A stretch of 64,000 nucleotides of DNA from Candidatus Harrisonbacteria bacterium (GCA_023245035.1 JAHFLD010000002.1:1501-65500), one strand, 5' to 3'; shown: positions 3,001 to 40,849, numbered from the stretch's first letter. The notes: generated by a model not told the origin, from the sequence alone. Numbers and translations: made by a program.

Positions 3001-6000
3001 ACCGCAACCGGAAGTTTGTTGGTTGCGAACGCGACTTCCACCATCACTAATCTGACGACGGTCAATGCCACTTCCACCAACGCGACCTCGACGACTCTTT
3101 ACGTTTCCGGTTCGGCGATATTTGCCGGCGCCTCGACCACGATCACCAACCTCAATGCCACCTTCGCCTCGCTTGTCTCCACAGGCGGCGTCTTCGCTTC
3201 GGGCACTGGCGCGGTTTCGGGACTCCTCACGCTCTACTCGGGCTTTATATCCTCGGCCTCCTCGAGTATCTCTTCGAACCTGAACGTCTCGGGGGCGCTC
3301 AACGCCTCCTCAACTCTGGCCGTAGGCGGACTTGCGACCTTGACCGGTCTGCAGTCAACCGCCTCGAGCACGCTGCTCAATGTGACCAACTTCAGCGGAA
3401 CGAACGGCACCACGAGCAATGAGGCGATTACCGGTTCGCTGGCCGTGACCGGAGCCTCCTCGAGCATCGCCAATCTCAATTTGGTGAACGCGACCTCGAC
3501 GACGCTCTACACCTCCGGACAGTTCCTCGCCGGGGGCGCCAGCAACACGATCTTGGGGACGCTCTACGGCTCAACCTTCAATCCGCAGACCTTGACCTCG
3601 ACTGGGAGTGTCAACGCCTCGGGCACCTTGGCCGTCTCGGGACTGGCCTCGCTCTACTCGGGCTTTATATCCTCGGCCTCCTCGAGCGTCTCCTCGAACC
3701 TGAACGTCTCGGGGGCGCTCAATGCCTCCTCAACTCTGGCCGTAGGCGGACTTGCGACCTTGACCGGTCTGCAGTCAACCGCCTCGAGCACGCTGCTCAA
3801 TGTCAGCAACTTTACCGCGACCAACGGCACCACGACCTCGGCCACCTCGACCTCCTTGTATGTTTCGGGCTCCTTGGGTGTCAACGGCGCCTCGACCACT
3901 ATCACGAACCTTGTAACCGTGAACGCCACGACAACTAATGCCACCTCGACCTCCTTGTATGTTTCGGGTGCTTTGCGAGTAGCGACCACAACCGCCGGAC
4001 TTGGTTCAGTTTTTGCCTTGCAGGGCAACGCGCTTTTCTCCGGCGATCTCTCTTTGGCTAACTTGATTGCGACCGGTACGACCAGATTTGGCGGAATTAC
4101 ATATACCTGGCCGACGACGCAGTCGGCGGCGTGTTTGAAAAATGACGGCGCCGGAGTTTTGAGCTGGGGCTCGTGCGGTGGAGCCTCCGGATCACAGACG
4201 CCGTGGGCGCAAAACATTGATGCCTCCGGCTTCAGCCTTTCCAATGTAACCAACATTACCGCGACGAATAGCATTCTAATCGCGGCTTCTGGTGGGAATA
4301 TTGGAGGACAACTCTCGGTAGTGGCGACTTCGACCGATAGCATGTTATTCATGGGCAGAGCCGCCTCTGGGCAAACGGGGCATTTGTTTGCTTTGCAAGA
4401 TTCAAGCGGGGTTAATTTGTTCAGTGTGAGCGCTACCGGCAATACCTTTGCTTCATCGTCATTGCAAGTTTCGGCGACGACGACCTTGTATGGCGATATT
4501 GTTTTGGACTACACGACGACCGACAGACCGCGTGTTTTGAAGATTGGCGCGCCTAACGGAAATCCCCGAGGTTTGTGGATTGCCACTACGACTGGTGCGG
4601 CCTTAAATACTCCAGGAACTTGGCCATTACTTGTGGTGCAGTCAACTACGACTGGGATGTTGGATTACGCACGAGTTGGGATCGGTACTTCTACAACCTG
4701 GGGTGAGGCGGGCTTGCGGGATCAGTTGACTGTTGCCGGAAGAGCCTACACAACTTGGCAGTACGCGTCGTGTGACTTTGCGGGAGCGTCGCTTACAGCC
4801 GCCGTCGCCGCGGCAACGAGCAATGTTTGCGGTCCCTTTGGATTCTTTATCCATCAAGCCGGTTCGTTGAGTCCTGGTACCACGACACCAACATATGTGA
4901 AGCTCAATTCTACGGGAGGCAGTATTGGTCAGGGGGCGATGCTTGGTACCGTGCCAAACTTTATTTCGGCGACCACCAGTCCGGTACTTGAGGCCTGGGT
5001 TTCGGTGACGAGTATTACAAACGGACATTATCAAGTTGGTTTCTTCGGTGCCACGAGCACGACTTGGGATCCGGCTTGGCAGATGAATAACGGCATCTTC
5101 TTTGTGGCGGAACAAAACTTGAATGGTGGTAACTGGACGGCGGTTAACAAGCGGACGAATATTGATGGCACGGTGGCGAGTACCACAATCGATACCGGCA
5201 TTCCCGGGGCGAGTGGTTTTTCGGCGAGTGGCGTGGCCCAGTATCGGCGCCTTAGAATTGAGGTTAGTACCAGCACAATTTATTACCTGATCAATGGGAG
5301 AATTGTGGCACAGTTGAGTACCACAACTCCGTCCAGGAATTTAACCCCGGCGGTAACGGTGGCCAGTGTTTACGCCGCTGCTAGAAAGGATCTCAACTTA
5401 AGATTGTTGCGCCTATGGAATGACGATCCGGTTGGGGGCGAGGTTGTCGGGGCTCCAGCTTTGGACGACTCAACTCCGGAAGTTTCCGATTTGGATCGCA
5501 ATCATACCGCCGGCAAGTTCTTCTTTACCGGAACTACGACGCCACCCGAGGGCAGTCTGGTTTCCTATGATTACGGGGCATCGACTCATAAGAGTGGATT
5601 GTGGGTAGGTTACGCCACAACAACTTACGAATCCGGTTTGGCTGGCGTCGTGGCCAGTGAGGGTAATTCGGCTCTGCGCTTTGGTTCGGGCGATATTGAT
5701 GTGGCTTTGAGTGGCAAGGCGATGGTGCGAGTAAGCGCTGTGAACGGTGAAATTCATGCCGGGGATTATCTGACTTCGAGCGAGGTTCCAGGTGTGGCGG
5801 TTAAGGCGACGCAATCGGGCTGGATTATTGGTCAGGCCTTTGAGAGTTATTCCGGAGGCGGCGAAGGGGCGGTCTTGGCGAATATCGCCCCCGAATTTAT
5901 GACGGTTGATAAACAGTCAGCTTCCGGCGTGATTGATTCTATTACCGAGACGGTTTCGGAATTGGCGGATTTTGTGGCGCAGAATAGCGCGAAGCTAGTG

Positions 6001-6729
6001 AAGGTTTTTTACGGTAAAATTGTGGCCGCGATCGCGGTGGTTAATAACCTTTTTGTGCACACGGTTACCATCTTGCCGGATGGCGAGCTTGCGGTGCCCG
6101 AGGGCGCGAATCAGATTTCCGGAACTGCGACTATTCAGTCCGGCGCTTCGGAGGTGACGATTTACAACACCAAGGTTACTTCTACTAGCAAGATATTTAT
6201 TACTCCGACAACATTGACCAGTTTGCCGCTTTCGGTGACCAATAAGACGTCGGGGCAGAGCTTTACGGTTAGCGTTCAGGGTACCTTGGTTAATTCGATA
6301 GACTTTGATTGGCTGATAATCGGAGCCTATCCTGCTGGTTTGGGAAATCCGCAGACGCAGCAGAATCAGGCGCCCAATAATTCGGGTGGACAGAGCGGTA
6401 ATTCCGGAGGCCTGGCTCCAGATCAGAATCTTGGCAATGGTTCAGGCGGGGATTCTACCGGTGGAACCGGGGCGGTGATTGTTCCGCCGCCGGATTCGCC
6501 CTTAACGCCACCGGATAGTGGATTAAATAATTCTTCGGGAGACGGTTCTTTGCCGATAATTCCGCCTCCAGATGCCGGACAAGTTAATTCACCGCCAGAT
6601 GCGGGAGTTTCAGCGCCGCCCCCAGATAATGGTTCGGGGCAAGTAACTCCACCACCGGACGCGGGAGTGAATAGCGGTGGCGCTGGCAGCGGGGAGCCGC
6701 CGGATGCCGGTTCGGCGCCGAATCCGTAA
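1..6729 (+). CDS. Very large repetitive S/T/N/G-rich cell-surface protein, 5'-truncated; two ConA/LamG-like lectin modules and a proline-rich C-terminal tail
   Basis: The reading frame is open from base 1, and bases 1-190 repeat bases 3211-3400, so the protein starts upstream of the window. The listed TTG at 88 is probably not the true start. It has ~22-aa periodic repeats (ASTTITNLxTVNATSTNATSTSLYVSG) and IGIGTTTPSAALAVNGS-type motifs. Two blocks end in DYVKLWADDP / LRLWNDDP, resembling ConA-like lectin/LamG folds. The C-terminus carries PPDAG repeats. Antisense ORFs in the track are low-complexity artefacts. Confidence 0.8.
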   Translation, partial: AVSGLLTLYSGFISSASSSVSSNLNVSGALNASSTLAVGGIATLTGLVSTASSTLLNVSNLSGTNATTTNLYVTDVASLNGASTTITNLVTVNASSTNSTTTNFYIGNGFVSNGSTSASSTILGRLNIPQSGSAVGVSISGVSTGSGLLLGAPTTGKSIDVTAGSLTSGSVLSYSGNTNGTFGTRSGNYINIVPTRNLTSSDSTNSGSFINLEERLQNTGTGIMSITGTLITASSTCFGSGQCYDGGGLILLRQNNANATGTVARLISNASSTVLLSLENAANVLYSIAPTTSSSTSITIRTGGAATTTIPDLYTNIWSIATNTASTPVFTISTLSGPRIGIGTTTPSAALAVNGSFYVTGRSIADVLLATSIGIGTSSPAATFSIHGNELISGTTTVGGIVATSSIDTSNKSGFTWLTASGLNALVFATNTQGTSGQYPIFSIGATTTSNGGLDYARVAVGTTTDALNNGLREQFTVAGRLRQTWAVYDNDFMSVGGGNPGAAIANSDTANVINGAFHFDSEGQCQLTQIPSTNTVGNSKGIIGLRASSGTGTTAPGNGCILSAAANTGATSSPVFETKVAMSATNNSHAFVGLGYVSAVGGDANASSTFEVGFKYGTSSNWFAEANDNGTATMVDTGVVPSTSAFQTLRFEFDSNSKVSFFIDGVLRGVITTNIPSGSMGMLFKLEQTIDTSNPGMSIDYVKLWADDPPGGNGPNSGGGGNDPNFNLPPNLSSLDMIYQSAVVERYNTAVNALNYPLGTVMAFDATSSPVYAGVYVKPAATTYGDLVMGVVAHNEAAKIELGFGNLPLVKSGRGYVRVQGQVNAGDLLTISTTPGVAEKANNSNLLLGRALTAVGNSGLVLADIEIKHESSTTTYSNAVFTQSSFTSATTTNATSTSLYVSGALRVATTTAGLGSVFALQGNALFSGDLSLANLIATGTTRFGGITYTWPTTQSAACLKNDGAGVLSWGSCGGASGSQTPWAQNIDASGFSLSNVTNITATGSLLVANATSTITNLTTVNATSTNATSTTLYVSGSAIFAGASTTITNLNATFASLVSTGGVFASGTGAVSGLLTLYSGFISSASSSISSNLNVSGALNASSTLAVGGLATLTGLQSTASSTLLNVTNFSGTNGTTSNEAITGSLAVTGASSSIANLNLVNATSTTLYTSGQFLAGGASNTILGTLYGSTFNPQTLTSTGSVNASGTLAVSGLASLYSGFISSASSSVSSNLNVSGALNASSTLAVGGLATLTGLQSTASSTLLNVSNFTATNGTTTSATSTSLYVSGSLGVNGASTTITNLVTVNATTTNATSTSLYVSGALRVATTTAGLGSVFALQGNALFSGDLSLANLIATGTTRFGGITYTWPTTQSAACLKNDGAGVLSWGSCGGASGSQTPWAQNIDASGFSLSNVTNITATNSILIAASGGNIGGQLSVVATSTDSMLFMGRAASGQTGHLFALQDSSGVNLFSVSATGNTFASSSLQVSATTTLYGDIVLDYTTTDRPRVLKIGAPNGNPRGLWIATTTGAALNTPGTWPLLVVQSTTTGMLDYARVGIGTSTTWGEAGLRDQLTVAGRAYTTWQYASCDFAGASLTAAVAAATSNVCGPFGFFIHQAGSLSPGTTTPTYVKLNSTGGSIGQGAMLGTVPNFISATTSPVLEAWVSVTSITNGHYQVGFFGATSTTWDPAWQMNNGIFFVAEQNLNGGNWTAVNKRTNIDGTVASTTIDTGIPGASGFSASGVAQYRRLRIEVSTSTIYYLINGRIVAQLSTTTPSRNLTPAVTVASVYAAARKDLNLRLLRLWNDDPVGGEVVGAPALDDSTPEVSDLDRNHTAGKFFFTGTTTPPEGSLVSYDYGASTHKSGLWVGYATTTYESGLAGVVASEGNSALRFGSGDIDVALSGKAMVRVSAVNGEIHAGDYLTSSEVPGVAVKATQSGWIIGQAFESYSGGGEGAVLANIAPEFMTVDKQSASGVIDSITETVSELADFVAQNSAKLVKVFYGKIVAAIAVVNNLFVHTVTILPDGELAVPEGANQISGTATIQSGASEVTIYNTKVTSTSKIFITPTTLTSLPLSVTNKTSGQSFTVSVQGTLVNSIDFDWLIIGAYPAGLGNPQTQQNQAPNNSGGQSGNSGGLAPDQNLGNGSGGDSTGGTGAVIVPPPDSPLTPPDSGLNNSSGDGSLPIIPPPDAGQVNSPPDAGVSAPPPDNGSGQVTPPPDAGVNSGGAGSGEPPDAGSAPNP

Positions 6730-11481: not shown

Positions 11482-13212
11482 ATGTTCTTGGATAAGGCGT
11501 TTCTGGATCGGGCAATACCGATTGCTCGACAGTTCGTAAGAGCCCCAGTTCCGTATCAGTTTTCGGTTCGCGAGACTGAAGCCCTGAAATTGTTTTTTAC
11601 CAGTGCGACTTCGAGAGTTTTTTTCTTCCGGAATATGCCGCCGAATTTTTCGGCGGCGCTGCTCGCGATGTATTCGCGGCTCAAGAATCAGCGAGGGATT
11701 CGCGGTCATTTTGTTGATACGCTCTTGCCGCTTTTGCTAACGGGGCTTTTGGAGAATTTCTCCGAAGTTTCGCCAAGCGGAGCGATTCATGCCTATCAGG
11801 CTTATCTGACCGGATTGGGCATTAGGTCGCTTGATCAGTTCTGCGAAGCCAAGATAGAGCATCTGGCGGTATTTAAGGATTTCGTGGCGAATGCCACGGG
11901 CGATCCACGACTTGAAAAACAGTTGGCGGATTCACCGAAGATGAAGGCGTTGCTTGATGTGTTTTTGGACAAGTACGGGCACAATTCCATCGCGCGCGGA
12001 GCGGCTCTCACGTTCGCAGTGGAAGACATTTCCATTCTCGCGGCCAAGTCCATTGAGTGGAATCGTCCGGGTTCGGGGTTTATTGAGTTGAGCACGCGGT
12101 TTGTGGATATTTCGCGCGCCAGACAGTATCCAATCTGGGACGAGATTGCCTTAGTTTGCGAAGAGGCGGCGTGCGCGGCCAGAGAGGCGATTGTTCAGGC
12201 GAGCGCGGCTTATCGAACCTTGATTGGTGTGGCGTTTGACGGAATCTTGCCGAAGTTTTTTGAGCAACACTTCGCCCCGCTTTTGCCGGTCAAGGACTTG
12301 AAGTCCGCGGTTCAGGGCGAGGCGTGCGACGTGGCGGGCAATGTTTTGCCGTGCGCGACTTTGACTTCGGTTGGGGTGGCGATTTCCGGCGAGGCTTTTG
12401 ACTCTCTGCTTAAGCATCTGTTGCTTGACGCGACTCCGGAGAACTTTGCTCTGGTTGAATTGATTTTGGCCGAAGCCGCGAAGGTTGGCGGGGATCAGTT
12501 TGCCCGACACTACGAGCCGTCGCCGTGGGAAGTTGAGGGGTGGAGATACTTATCCTCGCAGAATATCATCCAAGGTTTCGGCACGACTTCGCTCTTGATT
12601 GCCGAGGATGTTTTGTGGAATTATTTTCGTTCCGATGGCACGTCCAACGGTTCCGCGGTGTTTGAAGATGTGCTGAGAAAGTTGCCGTTTGAAGAGAGGG
12701 GAGAACACGATCGCTTGCCCTATCATTTTGAAACGGTTTTTGGCACTAGCTTTGGAAAGATGTCTTTTCGTGGTTGGCGAGATTTGCAGAGGCATGTGCT
12801 CGCGACTCACGCGCGGACATTGGTTGATCCGAGTCTCGGTTTTTACCATTACGACAAGCCGGCACCCACCGAATTGGCCGACGTGTTTGACGAGATTCAC
12901 CTGATGAATCGAGCCACGTGGACGGCACTCTGCGGTCGCGGAGTCGCTCCGCTTATCGCGCAGTATGCCATGGCGATGGGTAATCTGGTTGGATTCCTGT
13001 GCGGTGCCAATTTGCGCGAATGGGAGTTCATCCTGTGGCAGAGAAGCGACTTTCAAGTGAATCACGAGGTGCGACAGGTGGCGCTGGGGATTGATCGCGC
13101 CCTGCAGATTCAGTTTCCGTGGTGGCGAAAAATTTCCCGTACCGATCTGACTCCGGCTTATGTGGCCGCTCGTAGTGAAGTTGGCGTGCCGTTGCCGACA
13201 AGTGTTGGTTGA
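11482..13212 (+). CDS. Hypothetical 576-aa protein, bracketed by TACGAAT direct repeats; weak tandem ThyX-like signature (speculative)
   Basis: GGAG RBS 5 nt upstream of the ATG. Two halves carry faint TFAVEDIS...ELSTRF and SFRGWRDLQRHVLATHART segments, reminiscent of the ThyX TFxxEGxS...RHR...SQRY signature. No confident assignment. Confidence 0.5.
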   Translation: MFLDKAFLDRAIPIARQFVRAPVPYQFSVRETEALKLFFTSATSRVFFFRNMPPNFSAALLAMYSRLKNQRGIRGHFVDTLLPLLLTGLLENFSEVSPSGAIHAYQAYLTGLGIRSLDQFCEAKIEHLAVFKDFVANATGDPRLEKQLADSPKMKALLDVFLDKYGHNSIARGAALTFAVEDISILAAKSIEWNRPGSGFIELSTRFVDISRARQYPIWDEIALVCEEAACAAREAIVQASAAYRTLIGVAFDGILPKFFEQHFAPLLPVKDLKSAVQGEACDVAGNVLPCATLTSVGVAISGEAFDSLLKHLLLDATPENFALVELILAEAAKVGGDQFARHYEPSPWEVEGWRYLSSQNIIQGFGTTSLLIAEDVLWNYFRSDGTSNGSAVFEDVLRKLPFEERGEHDRLPYHFETVFGTSFGKMSFRGWRDLQRHVLATHARTLVDPSLGFYHYDKPAPTELADVFDEIHLMNRATWTALCGRGVAPLIAQYAMAMGNLVGFLCGANLREWEFILWQRSDFQVNHEVRQVALGIDRALQIQFPWWRKISRTDLTPAYVAARSEVGVPLPTSVG

Positions 13213-13459: not shown

Positions 13460-14194
13460 TTAAGCTCTGGCGGCGACGAGAGCGATAATGTTTTTTCCGC
13501 CGGCGCGTTTGATGGTGAGCGCGGCTTCGCGCAGAGTGGCGCCGGAGGTCGTGACGTCATCTACAAGAATTATATTTTTTCCGCGAACTTGTTCCGGTTT
13601 TTTTATGAGAAAGCTGTGCTGAATGTTTAGGACGCGTTCGGCGCGACTTACGCATTCGGCTTGGGGCTTGATGTAGCGAACTCGCCGGAGGGTGGAAGAG
13701 TTTATCGGCAAGCCGGTTTTCTGCGCAAAGCGGCGGGCCAAAAGTTCCGCCTGGTTGAAGCCCCGGATCTTGAGGCGGCGGCGATGCAGGGGGAGTGGGA
13801 TGACTAGCGGGTTTTTTGTTTGATTAGCGACTTCCTTCCAGTAGCGGGACATCAGGTGCGCCAAAGGGCGGGCCGCGACTGTCTGGCCCCGATATTTTAA
13901 TTGCCAGATTAGTCTTTGAACAGTCTCGTTTTCATATTTAGCGGCGGCGGCGAGCAGGTAGGGGCTTTCGGGGTGGCAGATTTTTTTACCGTCGGGGAGG
14001 CGGGCGCCGCAGATGGCGCATTCAAGCGCGTCGCCAAGTTTAATGTTTTCTTCGCAGGCCGCGCAAAGATTGTAGGTTTTGCGAAGATCCGCGACGACGG
14101 TTTCGCAGACTACGCAAAGTGGCGGGAAGATCAGATCAACGGCTGTTGCGGCGAGGCGCCGGAAGACGCTCATGGTATACTTTGAATATATCAT
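13460..14194 (-). CDS. comFC: Competence protein ComFC (phosphoribosyltransferase-type, N-terminal zinc finger)
   Basis: N-terminal CxxC...CxxC pairs and C-terminal PRTase motif ILVDDVTTSGATL. Divergent from pilM with only 8 bp between start codons. Confidence 0.8.
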   Translation of the reverse strand: MIYSKYTMSVFRRLAATAVDLIFPPLCVVCETVVADLRKTYNLCAACEENIKLGDALECAICGARLPDGKKICHPESPYLLAAAAKYENETVQRLIWQLKYRGQTVAARPLAHLMSRYWKEVANQTKNPLVIPLPLHRRRLKIRGFNQAELLARRFAQKTGLPINSSTLRRVRYIKPQAECVSRAERVLNIQHSFLIKKPEQVRGKNIILVDDVTTSGATLREAALTIKRAGGKNIIALVAARA

Positions 14195-31765: not shown

Positions 31766-31896
31766 CACCTCACTTCGTTCTTTAAGAACCCACGGTTCTT
31801 AATCTTTTCCTTCACGGAGGGGACGCAGTTGCTTCCCCTCCGACCCACCCCTCTTTCAAATTCGGTCGACTTTTGCTTTGTGATTTTGTCTTTTTT
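31766..31896 (-). mobile_element. Structured ~130-bp insertion downstream of tRNA-Asp (family copy 1), flanked by a duplicated tRNA 3' end
   Basis: A copy of the tRNA-Asp 3' end (gggcgcggacgaccggatttt) occurs at 31744-31765. In minus-strand reading the order is target end, degenerate reverse-complement of the target end (cgaccgaatttgaa), core aggggtgggtcgg + hairpin ggaggggaagcaactgcgtcccctcc + hairpin ttaagaaccgtgggttcttaa, then the direct copy. Confidence 0.6.
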
Positions 31897-31973
31897 GGCG
31901 CGGACGACCGGATTTGAACCGGCGATCTCTACCGTGACAGGGTAGCGCTTTGGACCAGCTAAGCTACGTCCGC
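31897..31973 (-). tRNA. tRNA-Asp (anticodon GTC), CCA encoded
   Basis: Minus-strand sequence GCGGACGTAGCTTAGCTGGTCCAAAGCGCTACCCTGTCACGGTAGAGATCGCCGGTTCAAATCCGGTCGTCCGCGCCA. Confidence 0.85.
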
Positions 31974-32066
31974 ATAGATGATAGTATTGCAGTATTGGAA
32001 TATTTTTTCAATTCTTGGCATTGCGTATCAGAATATCGTAGCTATAAGTCCATGGATTGGTTGCCT

Positions 32067-33392
32067 TCAACTGAGATTTTTTACCAGTTTTTTGAAATAA
32101 AGGCCGCGTTCTTTAGCGTTGTGAAATTCGTCAAAACTGGCCGAGGCGGGGGAGAGCAGGACGACAATGTTAGAATTTTTGGGGTTTAGGGCGATTTCTT
32201 TTTTAGCCAGGGCATAACCAGAGACGAGGGCGGCGGCTAGATTTTTGCGCGAGCTGATTTTTTGCGACAACCTGGCGGCGGTGAGTTCTTTTAAGATTTT
32301 TTGCTGATTTTCTCCATAGAGTATGATTTTTGAGACTGAGCTTTTTTTAATCACTCGCGCCAATTCTAGGTAGCTAAGATTTTTGTCTTTGCCGCCGAGA
32401 AGTAGAATCGTCGACTGATTTTGAGCGCGGATGGCGGCCATGGTACTACCCGGGTTGGTGGCGGCCGAGTCGTTGATGAATTTTATCGCGCTGTTTTTGG
32501 TTTTGATTTGACGGACAAGTTCCAGCCGGTGCTCCAGTCCTTTGAAGTTTTCAACGACCCTTTGAATCGTGGTTTCCGGAACATTTAAATAACGGCAGAC
32601 TGCCGCGGCAAGAGTCAGATTTTTTCGCGGAGTGTTTTCATCGGGTGTTATCGGATGGCGTTCGGCCGGACTTTGCTTCAAAACCCGGATGACATTTTTA
32701 TTGTCGGCGAAGAAAAAGACCGGCTGATTGGTGGATTGAAAGGCGGTGAGGTTTGATTTGGCTTTAAAATATTCCCCAAGGCTTCGGTGATTGTCTAGGT
32801 GATCGGGAAATATATCCACGAAGACCGCGATATCGGGCGAGGTTTGGAGATCCTGAAGTTGAAAGCTAGAGAGTTCCAAGACGATGATTTTTGGAACTGG
32901 CTTGGCTTGCAGGAGATCCAGCATGGGGATTCCGATGTTGCCGGCGAGCGCGGATTTTTTGCCGGCGCTCCGCAGTATTTGGTGAATAACAGTGCTTGTG
33001 GTGCTCTTGCCCTTGGTGCCGCTCACGCCAATTAAAAGCGGTTGGGGATTTTTCCGGCGAATTTCCTCAAAAAATATTTTGGTGGCGCTGGTCAGGGTCG
33101 CGCCGTTTTTTGCGGCCGCTTGAAGCTCCGGCGTGTTGAACGGAAGACCAGGCGAGCGGATGATTAGGTTATAGTTAGCGATGTCGGAGAGATAGTCTTT
33201 GCCGACGCGCAGTTTTATTTTTTTGGCCAGGGCCGGCGGAATTGCTTTGGATATTTTGGGGTCTCGGTCAAGAATAAAAATTTCGGCCGGGCGGTAGATC
33301 GGATGAGACAAGAGAAAACGCAGAGCTGATTTTCCTTCGGCGCCGAAGCCGGCGATAGCTATTTTCATGGGTTTAGTATAGGTGCTCCACAC
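32067..33392 (-). CDS. murD: UDP-N-acetylmuramoyl-L-alanine--D-glutamate ligase MurD
   Basis: Mur ligase P-loop GVSGTKGKSTT. N-terminal Rossmann IAIAGFGAEGKS. 441 aa. Confidence 0.85.
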   Translation of the reverse strand: MWSTYTKPMKIAIAGFGAEGKSALRFLLSHPIYRPAEIFILDRDPKISKAIPPALAKKIKLRVGKDYLSDIANYNLIIRSPGLPFNTPELQAAAKNGATLTSATKIFFEEIRRKNPQPLLIGVSGTKGKSTTSTVIHQILRSAGKKSALAGNIGIPMLDLLQAKPVPKIIVLELSSFQLQDLQTSPDIAVFVDIFPDHLDNHRSLGEYFKAKSNLTAFQSTNQPVFFFADNKNVIRVLKQSPAERHPITPDENTPRKNLTLAAAVCRYLNVPETTIQRVVENFKGLEHRLELVRQIKTKNSAIKFINDSAATNPGSTMAAIRAQNQSTILLLGGKDKNLSYLELARVIKKSSVSKIILYGENQQKILKELTAARLSQKISSRKNLAAALVSGYALAKKEIALNPKNSNIVVLLSPASASFDEFHNAKERGLYFKKLVKNLS

Positions 33393-33529
33393 TCAAGGTT
33401 TCAAGGTTTGGGATTATCTTGCATGGGTATTTTGGAATACCCCTCGACTACGCTCGGGGTTATATGCGCTTCATCCCCGGCCTAAAACGGCCGGAGTTTG
33501 CTGATGTTGCGCATATAAAAAAACCCGGC

Positions 33530-34294
33530 TTAAAGCCGGGTTGAGCGACGACTGAGTCGTACTCTTTCTAACCAACCTTCAATTTCTCGCAGAGCGACGA
33601 ACTCCGGCGTGTTCGGGTTGACGCCATCTTCGTGAGTTCCAAAAATGCTCTTGTGGGTGAAGTTTTGAGCCGTGATCAGAGTTCTTCCTTGCGCCTTAGT
33701 GGCGGCATCAAAATACATTTGCGGTATTTCGCGCGGAACCACTTCATCGGCGCCCCACTGGAGAACGAGCAATTTTCCATTGAACCCGGCCATGTTGTCC
33801 CAGGCATCAGAATCTTGCCAGCTTCCTTCTCGCCGAATGGCTTCGGTGAACTTGGAGCCGAACGGAATTTTCTCCGCCACAACTTTTTTGTCGTAGGCGG
33901 CCGGCGCCACCAGAATCAGGGTGTCGTCTTTTCCCAGAAGATCAACTAAGTGACTCGCGATATAGCCGCCCATGCTTTCGGCCACGATTACGACTTCGGG
34001 GGGATCGTATTCGTCTTGGAGTTTGGTCAAGTTGGCGCGGGCATCATCAACCCGCGTGTGCAGTCCGCTAACCGAGAAATCTTCGCCTTGGTTCATGCCT
34101 CGAAAATCAAAGGCCGCGATTAAGCCGCCCTTGGTTAACCTTGCGATCTCCATCATGGTCGGCAGAGTCTTGCCACGCCGATTATTGCGCGATCCACCGT
34201 AAAGCGGTACCAGCAAACGAGTGACCTTCTTCGGACTGACGTTGTCAAACATGAGCAACAACTGACCGTTCTTTTCCACTCCCTGGATTTGCAT
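33530..34294 (-). CDS. Alpha/beta-hydrolase fold protein
   Basis: GxSxG nucleophile elbow (AESMGG). 254 aa. Confidence 0.6.
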   Translation of the reverse strand: MQIQGVEKNGQLLLMFDNVSPKKVTRLLVPLYGGSRNNRRGKTLPTMMEIARLTKGGLIAAFDFRGMNQGEDFSVSGLHTRVDDARANLTKLQDEYDPPEVVIVAESMGGYIASHLVDLLGKDDTLILVAPAAYDKKVVAEKIPFGSKFTEAIRREGSWQDSDAWDNMAGFNGKLLVLQWGADEVVPREIPQMYFDAATKAQGRTLITAQNFTHKSIFGTHEDGVNPNTPEFVALREIEGWLERVRLSRRSTRL

Positions 34295-34429
34295 GCGTTA
34301 GCTCCCGATGAGGACGGCGCGCATTCATTTTGAAAGAGCCACGTGCATTCTTCCATATCGTTTACACGATGTCAAAATTAAGATATACTCCTGGCTGTCG
34401 CCAAGCTTAGTTTTTGGCGGCGCTTTTAT

Positions 34430-34503
34430 CCCGGGGTAGAGCAGCCCGGTAGCTCGTCTGGCTCATAACCAGAAGGTCGCAGGTTCAAATCCTGCCCCCG
34501 GAA
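34430..34503 (+). tRNA. tRNA-Met (anticodon CAT), probably initiator (C1 x A72 mismatch)
   Basis: CCCGGGG...CCCCGGA acceptor with an unpaired 1-72 position. CTCATAA anticodon loop. Confidence 0.8.
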
Positions 34504-34590
34504 CAAGGGATAAGTTTTCGCACAGGCGGTTTTTTGGATCGGCGCTATGCTGGGCGTAGGACTTTAAAATTTTTATGAAGGAGTTTTGGA

Positions 34591-35514
34591 ATGAGACTTT
34601 TTAAAACTCGCGCCGCGAAGTGGCTTTTGGTTTTTTTTATTGGTTTGGGGTTTGTTGCTTTGTGCGGAGTTCGTTTTTTTACGGTTGATGCTCGGACTCC
34701 GGTGAGCGTGGCCGCGGGTTATATTCAAGCCAAGCGCGGGGACAGTTGGTGGCTTACTTTGGCTCCAACGCTTTTCTCTGACGAGGATATTTTAAGGTTG
34801 CGGTCACGGCATCAGGGAATTGTGGACGCCATGCATAAATTTCGAGATCTTTCGCCGCAGACGCGAGAGTTGGCGGGGCTTTTACCGCGAGTTGTGCCGA
34901 TGGTGGCGTTAGCCGGTGGTTCGGCCGAATGCTTGCTTCGCGGGGAGAAGGATGGCTTGTTGCCGGCTGGAGCGATTGAGTTTTGCTATATTCCGCGAGA
35001 TTTTGTTGGGGAACATGCCTATCGGTTTTATTGCCGACATGATTGGCCGGCGGTTATAGCTGTCGCACTGGACTATCCGCAATTAGTGGCCGCGGCGCTT
35101 TTTTTCCACGAATTGGGACATTTGGCTTCGAAGTTCGATTGGCATATTTCCAGTTTGGAAGCGGAGCTCAATCCCAAGGTATTAAGCGAGGAGGTTCGGC
35201 TCTACGAGTTGGAGACATTAATTTTTGACGCGGGGACTGGCGGATCTTTTAGCCGTTTTTTGGATGAGGTGCTGGCGCGAGAGCCGATAAGTAGCAAGCG
35301 CGAAGCAGTTCTCGCGCTGACTGCTTCCGACATGAAGCATCTGGATCAATTGTTGGCCGCGGGTGATTCGGGTTACTTGATGGGAGCGATACTGGCGTTT
35401 CGTTATCAGATGGCGATTGGTTTGCGTTATTTGCGAGTAGCAGGAGTGGGGGATTTTGATAGCGAAGCGCTGGCTCTTTACCGCTGGATCGCGGGTGCAG
35501 TTGAGCAGAAATAA
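34591..35514 (+). CDS. Membrane-anchored putative zinc metallopeptidase (HExxH)
   Basis: N-terminal TM helix. HELGH motif in FFHELGHLASKF. Confidence 0.5.
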   Translation: MRLFKTRAAKWLLVFFIGLGFVALCGVRFFTVDARTPVSVAAGYIQAKRGDSWWLTLAPTLFSDEDILRLRSRHQGIVDAMHKFRDLSPQTRELAGLLPRVVPMVALAGGSAECLLRGEKDGLLPAGAIEFCYIPRDFVGEHAYRFYCRHDWPAVIAVALDYPQLVAAALFFHELGHLASKFDWHISSLEAELNPKVLSEEVRLYELETLIFDAGTGGSFSRFLDEVLAREPISSKREAVLALTASDMKHLDQLLAAGDSGYLMGAILAFRYQMAIGLRYLRVAGVGDFDSEALALYRWIAGAVEQK

Positions 35515-35583
35515 ACCGGTCTTAATGGGCCGGTTTTTTGCGCGTTTTCCAAAAATCTAATATGCTGTTCTGGTGCTTAATTT

Positions 35584-35655
35584 GCCGACGTAGCTCAGTG
35601 GTAGAGCGGACGTTTCATAAGCGTTAGGTCGCAGGTTCGATCCCTGCCGTCGGCA
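35584..35655 (+). tRNA. tRNA with CAT anticodon (elongator Met or Ile2/lysidine), CCA not encoded
   Basis: GCCGACG acceptor. D-arm GCTCAGTGGTAGAGC. Anticodon loop TTCATAA. T-arm GCAGGTTCGATCCCTGC. Confidence 0.8.
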
Positions 35656-35656
35656 C

Positions 35657-36636: not shown

Positions 36637-36993
36637 ATGTGGCAGATGACTTACCTCGTTGCGAAAACTCGGGAAGGATTCAAGAAGGATTGGCCGAGCA
36701 AGTTTTTTGTTGCCGTGCTTTTAGTCGCCTACTATTTTCCGGTTTTCAAGCTGATTGACGCCGGGGTTCTGGCCAAGGACTCGCTTTTGCAACTAGGCCT
36801 AACCTTTAGCATCATGGTTGGCTTTGTAGCCTACTTGGCCCTCGCCTACATCCTAGGGATCGGTTTTCCGCGGTCGCTGAAGACTTTGCGTAATCATCTT
36901 GTGACCTTAGTCTACGGCGTTATTTCTCCGGTTGCTCTTTTCGCCTGGCTTGTGTTTTTTTGCCGCGATGGTTATTACGTGAACAGAGTTTAG
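36637..36993 (+). CDS. Hypothetical membrane protein
   Basis: GGAGG RBS 5 nt before ATG 36637. Three hydrophobic helices. Confidence 0.5.
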   Translation: MWQMTYLVAKTREGFKKDWPSKFFVAVLLVAYYFPVFKLIDAGVLAKDSLLQLGLTFSIMVGFVAYLALAYILGIGFPRSLKTLRNHLVTLVYGVISPVALFAWLVFFCRDGYYVNRV

Positions 36994-37071: not shown

Positions 37072-37374
37072 ATGAAAATACTTATTAATTCATCGGCGCA
37101 GAAGCCGAAAAATATCAATCTGATTTTGCGCCAAGCCGGTTATCATCCGGAAGTTAAACAGCGCACCGGCGAGTTGTCTTTTGTGCGGAGCGCCACCGGA
37201 CGGCCGTTTCCCAGATTCCATGTTTATGTGGACGAGGTGCCCGAAGGCTGGATGGTGAATTTGCATTTGGATCAAAAACAGCCGACTTACGAGGGAAGTT
37301 CGGCGCATAATGGCGAATATGAGGGGGTGATTATAGAGGAGGAGGCGAGGCGCATTAAATGGGCGGGGAGGTAG
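37072..37374 (+). CDS. Hypothetical small protein
   Basis: MKILINSSAQKP... About 100 aa with no recognised motif. The upstream ATG at 37036 is also possible. Confidence 0.4.
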   Translation: MKILINSSAQKPKNINLILRQAGYHPEVKQRTGELSFVRSATGRPFPRFHVYVDEVPEGWMVNLHLDQKQPTYEGSSAHNGEYEGVIIEEEARRIKWAGR

Positions 37375-37495: not shown

Positions 37496-38719
37496 ATGGC
37501 ACAGATTATGAAAGACAATTCGGCGGAAAATTACCCTTTCAAGATTGAAGTTGATTCAAAACCAGCTCTGACCGGTGGGGAATTGATTTCTTATAGCGAT
37601 CCGGCGGAGCAGGAAGTTCTGGCCAAGCTAAAGGGGCGCGATGATTTTGAGGCGCAAAGATTGCAGCGCATTTTGGCCTTGCCGGATTTGACGCGGACTA
37701 AAAACTCGCCGGTCAAGTTGGTTATAGACAAGATTCTGACTGTGCCGGATTTGCGCGGTTTTGACGTGGTGAGCATTCCCGAGACTATTAGTCCGGCGAA
37801 TAATTTTGATCTTTTTGATTTTCCGGCTGATCATCCAACGCGGAGACCGACCGATAGTTATTTTTTGACTCCGGAGCGAATGTTGCGCACACAGACAACT
37901 TCCATGTGGATGTATCACCTAAAAAATCCGGCGACGGTTAAAAAAATGGAGTCGCGGGGTTTTATGGGCCTTCTTTCCTACGGCAAGGTTTATCGCAAGG
38001 ACGAGATTGATCGCAAGCACTTTCCGGTTTTTCATCAGATTGACGGCTTGTATCTCGTCAAAAAAAGCCAGAAGGTTTTGACTTTGCAAGATTTGCATAA
38101 TGTTCTGACTTCAATAGTCGGGGCGGTTTTTGGCCAGGCGGCGGTGACCAGGTTTTTGCCGGACGCCTTTCCCTATACCGATCCGAGCACGCAAATGGAG
38201 GTGAAGTTCGGCGAAGACTGGCTGGAGATTTTGGGGGCGGGAATGGCGCGGGGAAGCACCTTGGCCAAACTCGGAATTGATCCTTCGGTTTATGGGGGTT
38301 GGGCTTTTGGTTTTGGGGTGGAGAGGTTAGCTATGCAAAAAATGCAAATTCCGGACATTCGAATCCTATGGTCAACCGATCCGCGAATCACCGGGCAATT
38401 TACAAGCATTGATAGTGTTTACGCGCAGGTTAGCCGCTATCCGGAAATTATTCGCGATATTTCTTTTATTGTTCCTCGAGATGTTGTGCCAAATCGGTTT
38501 TATGAAATTGTCCGCGAGCTTGGCGGCGACTTGGTGGAGGAGGTGAAGTTGATTGATGAGTACGAAAATGAGGCGAAGCTGGGGCCACAGAATAAGAGTT
38601 ACACCTTCCGCACGATTTATCGTTCTTTTGAACGGACTTTGACCGGAGAAGAGGTAAGCAAGATTCACGCGGCGGTGGAGGATTTTTTGAGGCGGGAACT
38701 GGGGGCGGGGATTAGGTGA
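37496..38719 (+). CDS. pheS: Single-chain phenylalanyl-tRNA synthetase-like class II aaRS (PheS-type catalytic core fused to FDX-ACB-like anticodon-binding domain)
   Basis: Motif 1 region DHPTRRPTDSYF. Motif 2 YRKDEIDRKHFPVFHQIDGL. Motif 3 GWAFGFGVERLAM. The C-terminal YPEIIRDISFIVP segment resembles the FDX-ACB domain of mitochondrial-type monomeric PheRS and of PheT. No pheT is adjacent in this window. Confidence 0.7.
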   Translation: MAQIMKDNSAENYPFKIEVDSKPALTGGELISYSDPAEQEVLAKLKGRDDFEAQRLQRILALPDLTRTKNSPVKLVIDKILTVPDLRGFDVVSIPETISPANNFDLFDFPADHPTRRPTDSYFLTPERMLRTQTTSMWMYHLKNPATVKKMESRGFMGLLSYGKVYRKDEIDRKHFPVFHQIDGLYLVKKSQKVLTLQDLHNVLTSIVGAVFGQAAVTRFLPDAFPYTDPSTQMEVKFGEDWLEILGAGMARGSTLAKLGIDPSVYGGWAFGFGVERLAMQKMQIPDIRILWSTDPRITGQFTSIDSVYAQVSRYPEIIRDISFIVPRDVVPNRFYEIVRELGGDLVEEVKLIDEYENEAKLGPQNKSYTFRTIYRSFERTLTGEEVSKIHAAVEDFLRRELGAGIR

Positions 38720-38782
38720 GCGCCTTTGCTTTTGAGGCGGCTTTTTGCTATAATTTGGGTGTAATCGAGTGATGATTTTTAG

Positions 38783-40849
<2,067 letters not shown>

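What the first reader, a model, noticed from the sequence alone, without database searches (positions are those of the whole stretch)
37496..38719. Single-chain (mitochondrial-type) PheRS-like gene without an adjacent pheT
The 407-aa product has PheS class II motifs 1-3 followed by a C-terminal YPEIIRDISFIV-containing block that resembles the FDX-ACB anticodon-binding domain normally contributed by PheT, or found in monomeric mitochondrial PheRS. It lacks the usual bacterial PheS N-terminal coiled coil, and no pheT is nearby (canonical bacterial PheRS is an alpha2beta2 tetramer). This may be a monomeric bacterial PheRS.
Basis: partly seen in the sequence, partly recalled or inferred. Interest (0 to 1): 0.6.

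Follow-up and report, generated by a model that had tools for sequence, protein, structure and literature searches.

The report
Single-chain mitochondrial-type PheRS in a CPR bacterium
This gene most likely encodes the cell's only phenylalanine-tRNA ligase, in the compact one-chain form known from mitochondria, and the same form is conserved across a large group of tiny-genome bacteria (Paceibacteria/Parcubacteria) that seem to lack the usual second subunit and its proofreading domain.

Summary
ORF 37496-38719 (+) encodes 407 aa: a PheS-type class II catalytic core (Pfam PF01409, 1e-54) fused to a full-length FDX-ACB domain (PF03147, 6e-23). There is no PheS N-terminal coiled coil and no pheT in the 64-kb window.

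The AlphaFold model (pLDDT 92.8) superposes over its whole length on human mitochondrial PheRS (TM 0.74). All ATP- and Phe-pocket residues are invariant in 120 homologs. They match E. coli PheS and organellar PheRS, not the look-alike paralog SrmL.

The organism is a Patescibacteria (CPR) member. At least 561 GTDB species representatives carry the gene, one copy per locus and often directly upstream of gyrB. No PheT editing or core domains occur in 1.24 Mb of flanks.

Published Parcubacteria tables fit one fused gene per genome: pheS is core, pheT (COG0072) is missing from the core list, and PF01409 and FDX-ACB are each found about once per genome. Absence of pheT from this particular genome, and the monomeric state, could not be tested.

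A rough neighbour-joining tree separates all fused forms (CPR, organellar, phage, SrmL) from 11 canonical PheS (100/100).

Verdict: housekeeping single-chain PheRS, a bacterial member of the mitochondrial-type kind. NCBI labels it "hypothetical protein", and I found no paper describing it.

The parts
37496..38719 (+). Complete gene for a 407-aa single-chain PheRS (PheS core + FDX-ACB), stop codon included
   Evidence: ORF list. Pfam. An identical protein lies on 6 public contigs. 120 listed homologs at 51-100% identity all carry PF01409+PF03147.
37496..37687 (+). N-terminal extension, residues 1-64: two short strands and two short helices, not the long PheS coiled-coil arm
   Evidence: No PF02912 hit. 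AF2 secondary structure: E16-19, E30-34, H36-47, H51-61; residues 1-10 have pLDDT below 50. The family is conserved only from about residue 18 onward.
37688..38401 (+). Class II PheS-type catalytic core, residues 65-302, with motifs 1-3. It includes motif 2 Arg167, the F179-H180-Q181-x-D183 stretch, the Phe pocket F225-P226-Y227-T228 and G268-W-A270-F-G272, and motif 3 E276-R277.
   Evidence: PF01409 E 1.1e-54. Residue-by-residue conservation in 120 homologs, aligned to E. coli PheS. Comparison with bona fide SrmL.
38402..38431 (+). Linker or hinge, residues 303-312, between the core and the anticodon-binding domain
   Evidence: Lies between the two Pfam domains. No regular secondary structure in the model. 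Collinear with the human mtPheRS junction.
38432..38716 (+). FDX-ACB (ferredoxin-fold anticodon-binding) domain, residues 313-407, homologous to the PheT B8 domain
   Evidence: PF03147 E 6e-23 over profile 1-94/94. TIGR00472 pheT_bact positions 698-798. The model shows beta-alpha-beta-beta-alpha topology. Foldseek aligns the full length to 3cmq. R320-D321-I322-S323-F324 are invariant.
38721..38749 (+). Terminator-like hairpin and T-run directly after the stop codon
   Evidence: Consensus scan only; sequence read. Not shown to be functional.
38804..40849 (+). gyrB, the conserved downstream neighbour (context, not part of the enzyme)
   Evidence: ORF. Pfam HATPase_c/DNA_gyraseB/Toprim. gyrB lies directly downstream on the same strand in about 40 of 80 related loci. 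The same pheS-gyrB adjacency shows in locus tags of published OD1 genomes.

Best explanation
The gene encodes the housekeeping phenylalanyl-tRNA synthetase of a Patescibacteria (Paceibacteria/Parcubacteria) bacterium, in the single-chain form otherwise known from mitochondria and chloroplasts.

Proposed mechanism:
1. The PheS-type class II core binds ATP through the motif 2 and motif 3 arginines (R167, R277).
2. It binds phenylalanine between F225 and Y/F227. A270, the equivalent of E. coli Ala294, limits the pocket against tyrosine. The product is Phe-AMP.
3. The C-terminal FDX-ACB domain, which in ordinary bacteria is the last domain (B8) of the beta subunit PheT, reads the GAA anticodon of tRNA-Phe.
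4. As in human mtPheRS, this domain probably swings on the short linker from a closed to an open state to dock the tRNA.
5. The rest of PheT is missing, including the B3/B4 editing domain. There is therefore no cis-proofreading of Tyr-tRNA-Phe, and accuracy rests on the active site.

Shown here: the domain architecture, the predicted fold, the conserved pocket, the single copy, the conserved housekeeping position, the wide distribution in the clade, and the absence of PheT domains nearby.

Inferred, not shown: catalytic activity, the monomeric state, the hinge motion, the lack of editing in trans, and the absence of pheT from the rest of this genome.
For: - Architecture: PF01409 1e-54 plus PF03147 6e-23.
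- Sequence match: the best PDB sequence match is human mitochondrial PheRS (1e-55), collinear through the fusion junction.
- Fold: the AF2 model has pLDDT 92.8 and pTM 0.89. The top Foldseek hits are 3cmq/5mgu (TM 0.74, rmsd 3.0-3.3 A over about 390 columns). Canonical PheS chains cover only the core (TMq about 0.5).
- Active site: H113, R116, R131, G163, R167, H175, F179-H-Q181, F225-P226, T228, S231, E244, G247, G249, G268, A270-F-G272, G274 and R277 are invariant in 120 homologs and identical to E. coli PheS. T132 and W269 are each conserved in 119 of 120, and position 269 is Phe in E. coli. Position 227 is F in 105 and Y in 15.
- Not SrmL: true SrmL proteins (514.7 bits) differ at seven of these positions.
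- Context: the neighbours are housekeeping genes (ligA, gatCAB, murD, gyrB, secE, nusG, L11, thrS, dnaE, smc).
- Distribution: at least 561 GTDB species representatives carry a relative. The best 80 include Paceibacteria and the Harrison-, Wolfe-, Nealson-, Staskawicz-, Moran-, Taylor- and Yanofskybacteria groups.
- Copy number and flanks: each of the 80 loci has exactly one PheS-like gene, and none has B3_4, B5 or B6-7 PheT sequence in 1.24 Mb.
- Independent published data on 17 Parcubacteria genomes, one of them closed: pheS (COG0016) is in 16 of 17; COG0072 is absent from the core list (genes in 13 or more of 17); PF01409 is in 17 of 17 (one hit each in 15 of them); FDX-ACB is in 16 of 17, one hit each (PMC4508563).
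Against: - The rest of this genome could not be read, so a canonical pheST elsewhere is not excluded for this organism.
- The protein passes no NCBIfam equivalog cut-off: pheS_mito 222.4 against 258.35; pheS 161.3 against 237.45; SrmL 227.6 against 300.
- The residue equivalent to E. coli Glu210 is Asp in the whole family, and this protein has the minority Y227.
- Activity and oligomeric state are untested.
- A sub-lineage keeps a PheT-derived tRNA_bind mini-protein next to the gene, so a trans-acting partner is conceivable.
- The published Parcubacteria tables were not checked sequence by sequence against this family.
Confidence: 0.8

Rival explanations
1. It is an accessory PheS-like paralog with another job, like the 'PheS-related mystery ligase' SrmL or phage-type copies. 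In this reading the real PheRS (canonical pheS + pheT) sits elsewhere in the genome.
For: The top NCBIfam hit by score is SrmL (227.6 bits). SrmL has the same two-domain architecture and occurs in bacteria that, from general knowledge, also have pheST, for example on an Azotobacter plasmid next to PRTRC/IS elements. The rest of this genome was not searchable. A CPR-like homolog also sits in a non-CPR-looking Oligoflexia MAG.
Against: The score is below the SrmL cut-off of 300. True SrmL differs at the pocket (H113->A/D, F179->P, F225->H, S231->G, G247->E, W269->L, F271->M/L), whereas this family keeps the PheRS residues. The context is housekeeping, not mobile. The gene is single copy and conserved in at least 561 species. 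Published OD1 genomes have one PF01409 hit each in 15 of 17 genomes and one FDX-ACB hit in each of 16, and no core COG0072.
Confidence: 0.07
2. It is the housekeeping PheRS but not a free monomer. It would work as a homodimer, or need a trans-acting partner such as a PheT-derived tRNA_bind mini-subunit or a separate editing factor.
For: Class II synthetases are normally dimeric. In 7 of 80 related loci a 125-160 aa ORF sits immediately upstream. It is 41-47% identical to E. coli PheT residues 7-161 (E down to 1e-28; Pfam tRNA_bind 2e-17). That mini-protein family has at least 537 members, all 207 aa or shorter among those listed.
Against: No such mini-gene lies in this window: the only tblastn hit is a spurious match inside a ComF-like phosphoribosyltransferase. 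It is also absent next to the gene in 73 of 80 loci. The whole-chain model matches the closed form of the monomeric human enzyme.
Confidence: 0.12
3. It is foreign or decaying DNA: a mis-binned eukaryotic organellar gene, a recent phage insertion, or a pseudogene.
For: The closest solved structure is eukaryotic. Related short forms sit on phage-like contigs of 340 kb and 635 kb.
Against: The ORF is intact, with an invariant active site. GC content and GC skew match the flanks. The same position upstream of gyrB recurs in about 40 of 80 species. Identity to animal sequences is only about 30%. The CPR sequences form their own clade, not nested in the organellar/phage clade.
Confidence: 0.01

Closest known systems
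Mitochondrial/organellar PheRS (human FARS2, yeast MSF1; PDB 3CMQ closed, 3TUP open with tRNA; TIGR00469; 'PheRS-M' in AARS Online, PMC11580382)
   Same: One chain with a PheS-type core, a short linker and a C-terminal FDX-ACB domain. It has no coiled-coil arm, beta subunit or editing domain. The fusion junction is collinear. The whole-chain fold matches at TM 0.74. The pocket residues are the same. The catalytic core groups with the organellar forms against 11 canonical PheS (100/100 NJ bootstrap).
   Different: It is encoded in a bacterial chromosome among housekeeping genes. It lacks the roughly 30-aa organellar insertion between motifs 2 and 3. It has its own 64-aa N-terminal extension. 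Asp replaces the conserved Glu after FHQ. It scores 222.4, below the TIGR00469 cut-off of 258.35. It forms a separate clade from the organellar/phage sequences.
Canonical bacterial (alpha-beta)2 PheRS: PheS (TIGR00468) + PheT (TIGR00472), e.g. E. coli 3PCO, T. thermophilus 1PYS
   Same: The catalytic core, motifs and Phe pocket are the same (34.8% identity to E. coli PheS 108-326; residues). The C-terminal domain is homologous to PheT B8.
   Different: There is no N-terminal coiled coil (PF02912), no separate PheT, and none of the B1-B7 domains, so no B3/B4 editing site. Scores fall below both equivalog cut-offs. No pheST operon is present.
SrmL, 'PheS-related mystery ligase' (NCBIfam NF051887), e.g. 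WP_198868198.1 on an Azotobacter chroococcum plasmid
   Same: The two-domain single-chain architecture is the same, and Asp follows the HQ motif in both. In the rough NJ tree SrmL falls on the same side of the single-chain clade as the CPR family (62% support).
   Different: SrmL has a remodelled pocket at seven positions. It sits in mobile-element contexts in hosts that, from general knowledge, have pheST. This protein scores 227.6 against the cut-off of 300, while true SrmL scores 514.7.
Single-chain PheRS genes of huge phages and giant viruses (e.g. uncultured phage LR745206, 635 kb; nucleocytovirus PheRS grouped with organellar PheRS in PMC11304981)
   Same: The PF01409 + FDX-ACB architecture is the same, without the organellar insertion.
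   Different: The phage forms are shorter (345-360 aa), pass the TIGR00469 cut-off, and cluster with the organellar clade rather than with the CPR clade (81% support). They sit among phage ORFans.

Membership tests
Single-chain mitochondrial-type PheRS (PheRS-M / TIGR00469) | PheS-type class II catalytic core with motifs 1-3 and a Phe-specific pocket | tested here: met
   PF01409 1.1e-54. Invariant R167, R277, FHQ, FP[FY]T and A270-F-G272 (W269 in 119 of 120) in 120 homologs, matching E. coli and organellar residues except that E. coli has Phe at position 269.
Single-chain mitochondrial-type PheRS (PheRS-M / TIGR00469) | FDX-ACB anticodon-binding domain fused to the C-terminus of the same chain | tested here: met
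   PF03147 6e-23 over the full profile. Ferredoxin-like topology in the AF2 model. Full-length Foldseek match to 3cmq, TM 0.74.
Single-chain mitochondrial-type PheRS (PheRS-M / TIGR00469) | Whole-protein score at or above the curated TIGR00469 cut-off (258.35 bits) | tested here: not met
   222.4 bits. The 50%-identical family representative P0121 does pass, with 264.3 bits. The model was built on eukaryotic sequences (my own knowledge of TIGRFAMs).
Single-chain mitochondrial-type PheRS (PheRS-M / TIGR00469) | Catalytic core more closely related to organellar PheRS than to canonical PheS | tested here: met
   NJ on 223 core columns with 100 bootstraps: 11 canonical PheS against all 64 single-chain forms, 100/100. 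The CPR clade is separate from the organellar/phage clade. The method is rough (NJ, saturated distances, no CPR canonical PheS sampled).
Single-chain mitochondrial-type PheRS (PheRS-M / TIGR00469) | Active as a monomer, with no beta subunit in the compartment or genome | not testable with these tools
   No PheT in the window or in 80 related loci. Published OD1 tables fit absence. The whole genome and the oligomeric state could not be examined.
Single-chain mitochondrial-type PheRS (PheRS-M / TIGR00469) | Charges tRNA-Phe with phenylalanine | not testable with these tools
   Needs biochemistry. No tRNA-Phe gene is in the window or near the orthologs.
Canonical bacterial PheS (TIGR00468) | N-terminal coiled-coil arm (PF02912) and a score at or above 237.45 bits | tested here: not met
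   No PF02912 hit at E<=1. 161.3 bits, with the match starting at profile position 63. Canonical PheS controls do show PF02912.
Canonical bacterial PheS (TIGR00468) | Partner pheT gene, usually adjacent | tested here: not met
   None in the 64-kb window and none in 80 orthologous loci. Control loci do have pheS-pheT side by side.
SrmL (NF051887) | Score at or above 300 bits | tested here: not met
   227.6 bits. A true SrmL scores 514.7.
SrmL (NF051887) | SrmL-type pocket substitutions | tested here: not met
   SrmL has A/D113, P179, H225, G231, E247, L269 and M/L271. This family has H, F, F, S, G, W and F at those positions. This signature rests on only two SrmL sequences.
PheT (TIGR00472) | B1-B8 multidomain beta subunit with the B3/B4 editing site | tested here: not met
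   Only profile positions 698-798 (B8) match, at 76 bits against the cut-off of 402.65.

The most novel reading that the evidence does not exclude
The PheS-B8 fusion arose once, in bacteria or their phages. The organellar PheRS of eukaryotes (FARS2/MSF1) would then descend from such a pre-existing single-chain enzyme rather than from an in-situ fusion of alphaproteobacterial pheS and pheT. Paceibacteria would preserve the bacterial counterpart of the mitochondrial enzyme, and some of them (Moranbacteria-like lineages with a stand-alone B1-B2 mini-beta gene) would preserve an intermediate stage of PheT reduction.
Probability: 0.3. Interest if true: 0.75.

Novelty: new member of a known kind. 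Interest (0 to 1): 0.55.

Why it matters
- Textbook rule. Bacterial PheRS is described as an (alpha-beta)2 enzyme with an editing beta subunit. A whole, very species-rich bacterial class appears to manage with a 47-kDa one-chain enzyme and no PheRS proofreading. That bears on translation fidelity in ultra-small symbiotic cells.
- Annotation. NCBI labels every named member among the listed homologs 'hypothetical protein', and no NCBIfam equivalog catches the family. These genomes therefore look as if they lack PheRS. From my own knowledge, unverified here, pheS (TIGR00468) and pheT (TIGR00472) are both bac120/CheckM-type markers, so their systematic absence would depress completeness estimates.
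- Origin of mitochondrial PheRS. This has been unclear. A bacterial sister group with the same fusion makes the question testable with proper phylogenetics.
- Practical use. A compact bacterial PheRS could be useful for minimal translation systems or for orthogonal synthetase/tRNA pairs.

Tried and rejected
- Leader or riboswitch control: Rfam finds only five tRNAs in the window and nothing upstream of the gene.
- tRNA-Phe near the gene: none in the window or in 60 related loci. The single 'tRNA-Phe(aaa)' in L074 is an ARAGORN false positive with no Rfam tRNA match.
- Naming distant representatives through cluster look-ups: most carry no names.
- Literature: ten full-text searches found no description of a CPR single-chain PheRS. 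Kantor 2013 has no held supplements. The Anantharaman 2016 bacterial single-copy list contains only PheRS alpha, so it says nothing about pheT.
- Seeds for a CPR PheT: the canonical PheS representatives nearest to the query turned out to be a Gram-negative and a Firmicute, not CPR. I therefore could not test phyletic complementarity (PheT in other CPR classes, the fused form in Paceibacteria).
- Mini-beta in the window: the tblastn hit at 13967-14092 is spurious. That ORF is a double-zinc-ribbon phosphoribosyltransferase.
- Tree: discarded because two GC-rich canonical PheS were extracted in the wrong frame. It was redone.
- Upstream small ORFs (37072-37374, 36637-36993): no Pfam family. The 100-aa ORF is conserved only in the three closest relatives. 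I found no evidence that they belong to the enzyme.

Full report
**Observation.** The ORF is exactly as described: 37496..38719 on the + strand, ATG start, 407 aa.
- Pfam finds a PheS-type class II core (PF01409, residues 65-302, E 1.1e-54) and a complete FDX-ACB domain (PF03147, residues 313-407, profile 1-94 of 94, E 6e-23).
- No PheS N-terminal coiled-coil domain (PF02912) is detected. Canonical PheS controls do carry it.
- The gene ends in a terminator-like hairpin, and gyrB follows 85 bp later.
- No pheT lies in the window. None of the 9 ORFs of 486 aa or more that were scanned is PheT. tblastn with E. coli PheS and PheT hits only this gene. A Firmicute PheT hits nothing at E<0.01.

**Organism and context.** The window is a housekeeping stretch: ligA, gatC/gatA, murD, this gene, gyrB, secE, nusG, L11, gatB, thrS, dnaE and smc. 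GC content is even and GC skew is positive throughout. The 120 best homologs (51-100% identity, 376-428 aa) all have both domains. Where named, they come from Patescibacteria: Paceibacterota, Parcubacteria, Wolfebacteria and Harrisonbacteria. NCBI calls them 'hypothetical protein' and JGI calls them 'PheRS alpha chain'.

**Structure.** An AlphaFold2 model built on a 50-sequence alignment is confident (pLDDT 92.8, pTM 0.89). Its C-terminal domain has beta-alpha-beta-beta-alpha ferredoxin-like topology. The best Foldseek matches in the PDB are the closed form of human mitochondrial PheRS (3cmq, 5mgu; TM 0.74, rmsd 3.0-3.3 A over about 390 columns). The open tRNA-bound form 3tup aligns at TM 0.56, and canonical PheS chains cover only the core. 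By sequence, human mtPheRS is also the best PDB hit (1e-55). It is collinear through the junction and differs by a roughly 30-aa organellar insertion that this protein lacks.

**Is it a PheRS or a look-alike?** No NCBIfam equivalog passes its cut-off: SrmL 227.6 against 300, pheS_mito 222.4 against 258.35, pheS 161.3 against 237.45. I therefore compared residues.
- Across 120 homologs the ATP and Phe site is conserved: H113, R116, R131, G163, R167, H175, F179-H-Q181, F225-P226, T228, S231, E244, G247, G249, G268, A270-F-G272, G274 and R277 are invariant and identical to E. coli PheS. T132 and W269 are each conserved in 119 of 120, and E. coli has Phe at position 269.
- Position 227 is F in 105 sequences and Y in 15, including this protein. 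The Glu after FHQ is Asp in the whole family.
- I recovered two bona fide SrmL proteins from plasmids. The Azotobacter protein scores 514.7 bits and sits among PRTRC/IS elements. Both differ at seven pocket positions.
- So this family looks like a working PheRS, not an SrmL.

**Distribution and the pheT question.** The best 80 include Paceibacteria and the Harrison-, Wolfe-, Nealson-, Staskawicz-, Moran-, Taylor- and Yanofskybacteria groups.
- In those 80 loci (1.24 Mb) there is exactly one PheS-like gene per locus.
- Every PheT-like segment falls either inside the C-terminus of that gene or in a small upstream ORF described below. No B3/B4, B5 or B6-7 sequence occurs.
- gyrB follows directly on the same strand in about 40 of the 80 loci.

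I could not read whole genomes with these tools, so absence of pheT from this genome is untested. Independent published tables help (Nelson & Stegen 2015, PMC4508563). They cover 17 Parcubacteria genomes, including the closed RAAC4 genome.
- pheS (COG0016) is present in 16 of 17 genomes.
- COG0072 (pheT) is not in the list of genes found in 13 or more genomes.
- PF01409 is found in 17 of 17, once each in 15 of them. FDX-ACB is found once each in 16 of 17.
- One FDX-ACB domain per genome without a COG0072 protein is what a fused gene predicts.
- Locus tags in that table also show pheS next to gyrB in several genomes, as here.

The authors did not comment on this, and ten full-text searches found no paper describing it. 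Other CPR groups do have PheRS beta: Microgenomates, often without the B2 domain (PMC5370408).

**An unexpected relic.** In 7 of the 80 loci (L024, L032, L042, L043, L046, L060, L069; Moranbacteria-like), a separate 125-160 aa ORF lies immediately upstream of the fused gene.
- It is 41-47% identical to E. coli PheT residues 7-161 (E down to 1e-28) and has the PheT-type N-terminus.
- Pfam calls it tRNA_bind (2e-17).
- It belongs to a family of at least 537 proteins. All 120 listed members are 207 aa or shorter and have only that domain.
- PheT was therefore dismantled in this lineage: B8 was fused to PheS, B1-B2 was kept as a mini-gene in some lineages, and the rest was lost.
- This window has no such gene. 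The single weak hit is spurious.

**Relationships.** An exhaustive search of 1.84 billion cluster representatives found 228 with E<=1e-30.
- They include eukaryotic organellar PheRS. Some are 64-86% identical to human FARS2 segments, and others share clusters with EukProt members.
- They also include short 345-360 aa forms that pass TIGR00469. At least one of these sits on a 340-kb phage-like contig, and a 635-kb phage record has one too.
- A CPR-like copy sits in a non-CPR-looking Oligoflexia MAG.

I built a neighbour-joining tree on 223 core columns with 100 bootstraps. The outgroup was 11 canonical PheS from Alpha-, Beta- and Gammaproteobacteria, Actinomycetota, Bacteroidota, Bacillota and unlabelled sources.
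- All 64 single-chain forms separate from canonical PheS (100/100).
- Organellar plus phage forms group together (81).
- The CPR family with its two nearest relatives groups together (71).
- The SrmL group is supported at 100.
- The CPR clade is not nested inside the eukaryotic sequences.

This tree is rough. It uses NJ on saturated distances, no ML tool was available, and no canonical PheS from CPR was sampled. It does suggest a single origin of the fusion.

**Mechanism.**
- Shown: the architecture, the fold, the conserved pocket, the single copy, the housekeeping synteny and the lack of nearby PheT domains.
- Inferred from the human and T. thermophilus enzymes (established knowledge; PMC3275996 reviews the three PheRS forms): Phe-AMP formation in the core, anticodon reading by FDX-ACB after a hinge rotation from the closed state seen in the model, monomeric action, and no cis-editing because B3/B4 is absent.

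**Verdict.** It is a bacterial member of the mitochondrial-type single-chain PheRS kind. It is widespread in Paceibacteria, unnamed by NCBI's annotation, and apparently undescribed in the searchable literature. Remaining doubts are whether pheT is absent genome-wide in this organism, the oligomeric state, and catalytic activity.

Noticed in passing
L042:9533-9970, L043:9531-9971, L032:9476-9970, L060:9521-9970, L069:9516-9971, L046:3591-4016, L024:9816-9992: A stand-alone 125-160 aa 'mini-PheT' (B1-B2, Pfam tRNA_bind) is encoded immediately upstream of the single-chain PheRS gene in 7 of 80 related species. In four of them it is flanked by tyrS, and in two of those also by valS. The family has at least 537 members, all 207 aa or shorter among the 120 listed. 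It is not present in this window.
   Followed up: partly
L043:9968-11131, L060:9971-11131, L069:9980-11131: In three of the mini-beta lineages the PheRS has FPYT-[VI]-ES instead of FPFTDPS, and a one-residue deletion in motif 3 (GFGERLAM or GFGDRLAM instead of GFGxERLAM). This hints at a diverging active site in that sub-clade.
   Followed up: no
L083:10001-11047 (ENA ERZ19027398, 340,874-bp contig); phage record LR745206.1:613842-614897: Short (348 aa) single-chain PheRS genes sit on huge phage-like contigs among ORFans (PhageMetallopep, PcfJ, SNF2 helicase). These short forms pass the TIGR00469 'mitochondrial' cut-off and cluster with organellar PheRS in the rough tree.
   Followed up: partly
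L085:5824-6936 (Azotobacter chroococcum plasmid NZ_CP066311.1); L086:2827-3945 (Glutamicibacter plasmid NZ_CP142605.1): Bona fide SrmL ('PheS-related mystery ligase') genes are annotated only as hypothetical proteins. The Azotobacter copy lies near a PRTRC ThiF-family gene, DUF4942, an HNH endonuclease and IS elements. The pocket is remodelled at seven positions.
   Followed up: partly
L095:10001-11245 (GCA_019694465.1, Oligoflexia MAG): A CPR-like single-chain PheRS (48% identical, PheRS-type pocket) sits in a contig whose neighbours look like a larger-genome, non-CPR bacterium: M20 peptidase, enolase-superfamily enzymes, beta-lactamase, TrmO. This could be horizontal transfer or a binning error. 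Several ENA auto-labels on CPR-like loci ('uncultured Gammaproteobacteria', 'Bdellovibrionales', 'Saccharibacteria') also look unreliable.
   Followed up: partly
window 88-6729 (+): A giant 2213-aa ORF with no Pfam domain at E<=1e-5.
   Followed up: no
window 11482-13212 (+): A 576-aa protein whose only Pfam hit is a ThyX (Thy1) domain at residues 150-334. It is much longer than a usual ThyX, with unassigned N- and C-terminal regions.
   Followed up: no
window 1-64000: GC skew is positive in 31 of 32 two-kb bins, and most long ORFs are on the + strand. This fits a single leading-strand replichore segment.
   Followed up: no
window 31896-35656; L003, L004, L005, L006, L013, L028, L035, L049, L059: A tRNA-Asp(GTC) plus two tRNA-Met(CAT) genes recur a few kb upstream of the PheRS gene in this window and in many relatives. 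This looks like a conserved local tRNA cluster.
   Followed up: no
L074:5738-5816: ARAGORN called a 79-nt tRNA-Phe with an AAA anticodon. Rfam finds no tRNA there even at a permissive threshold, so it is a false positive.
   Followed up: yes
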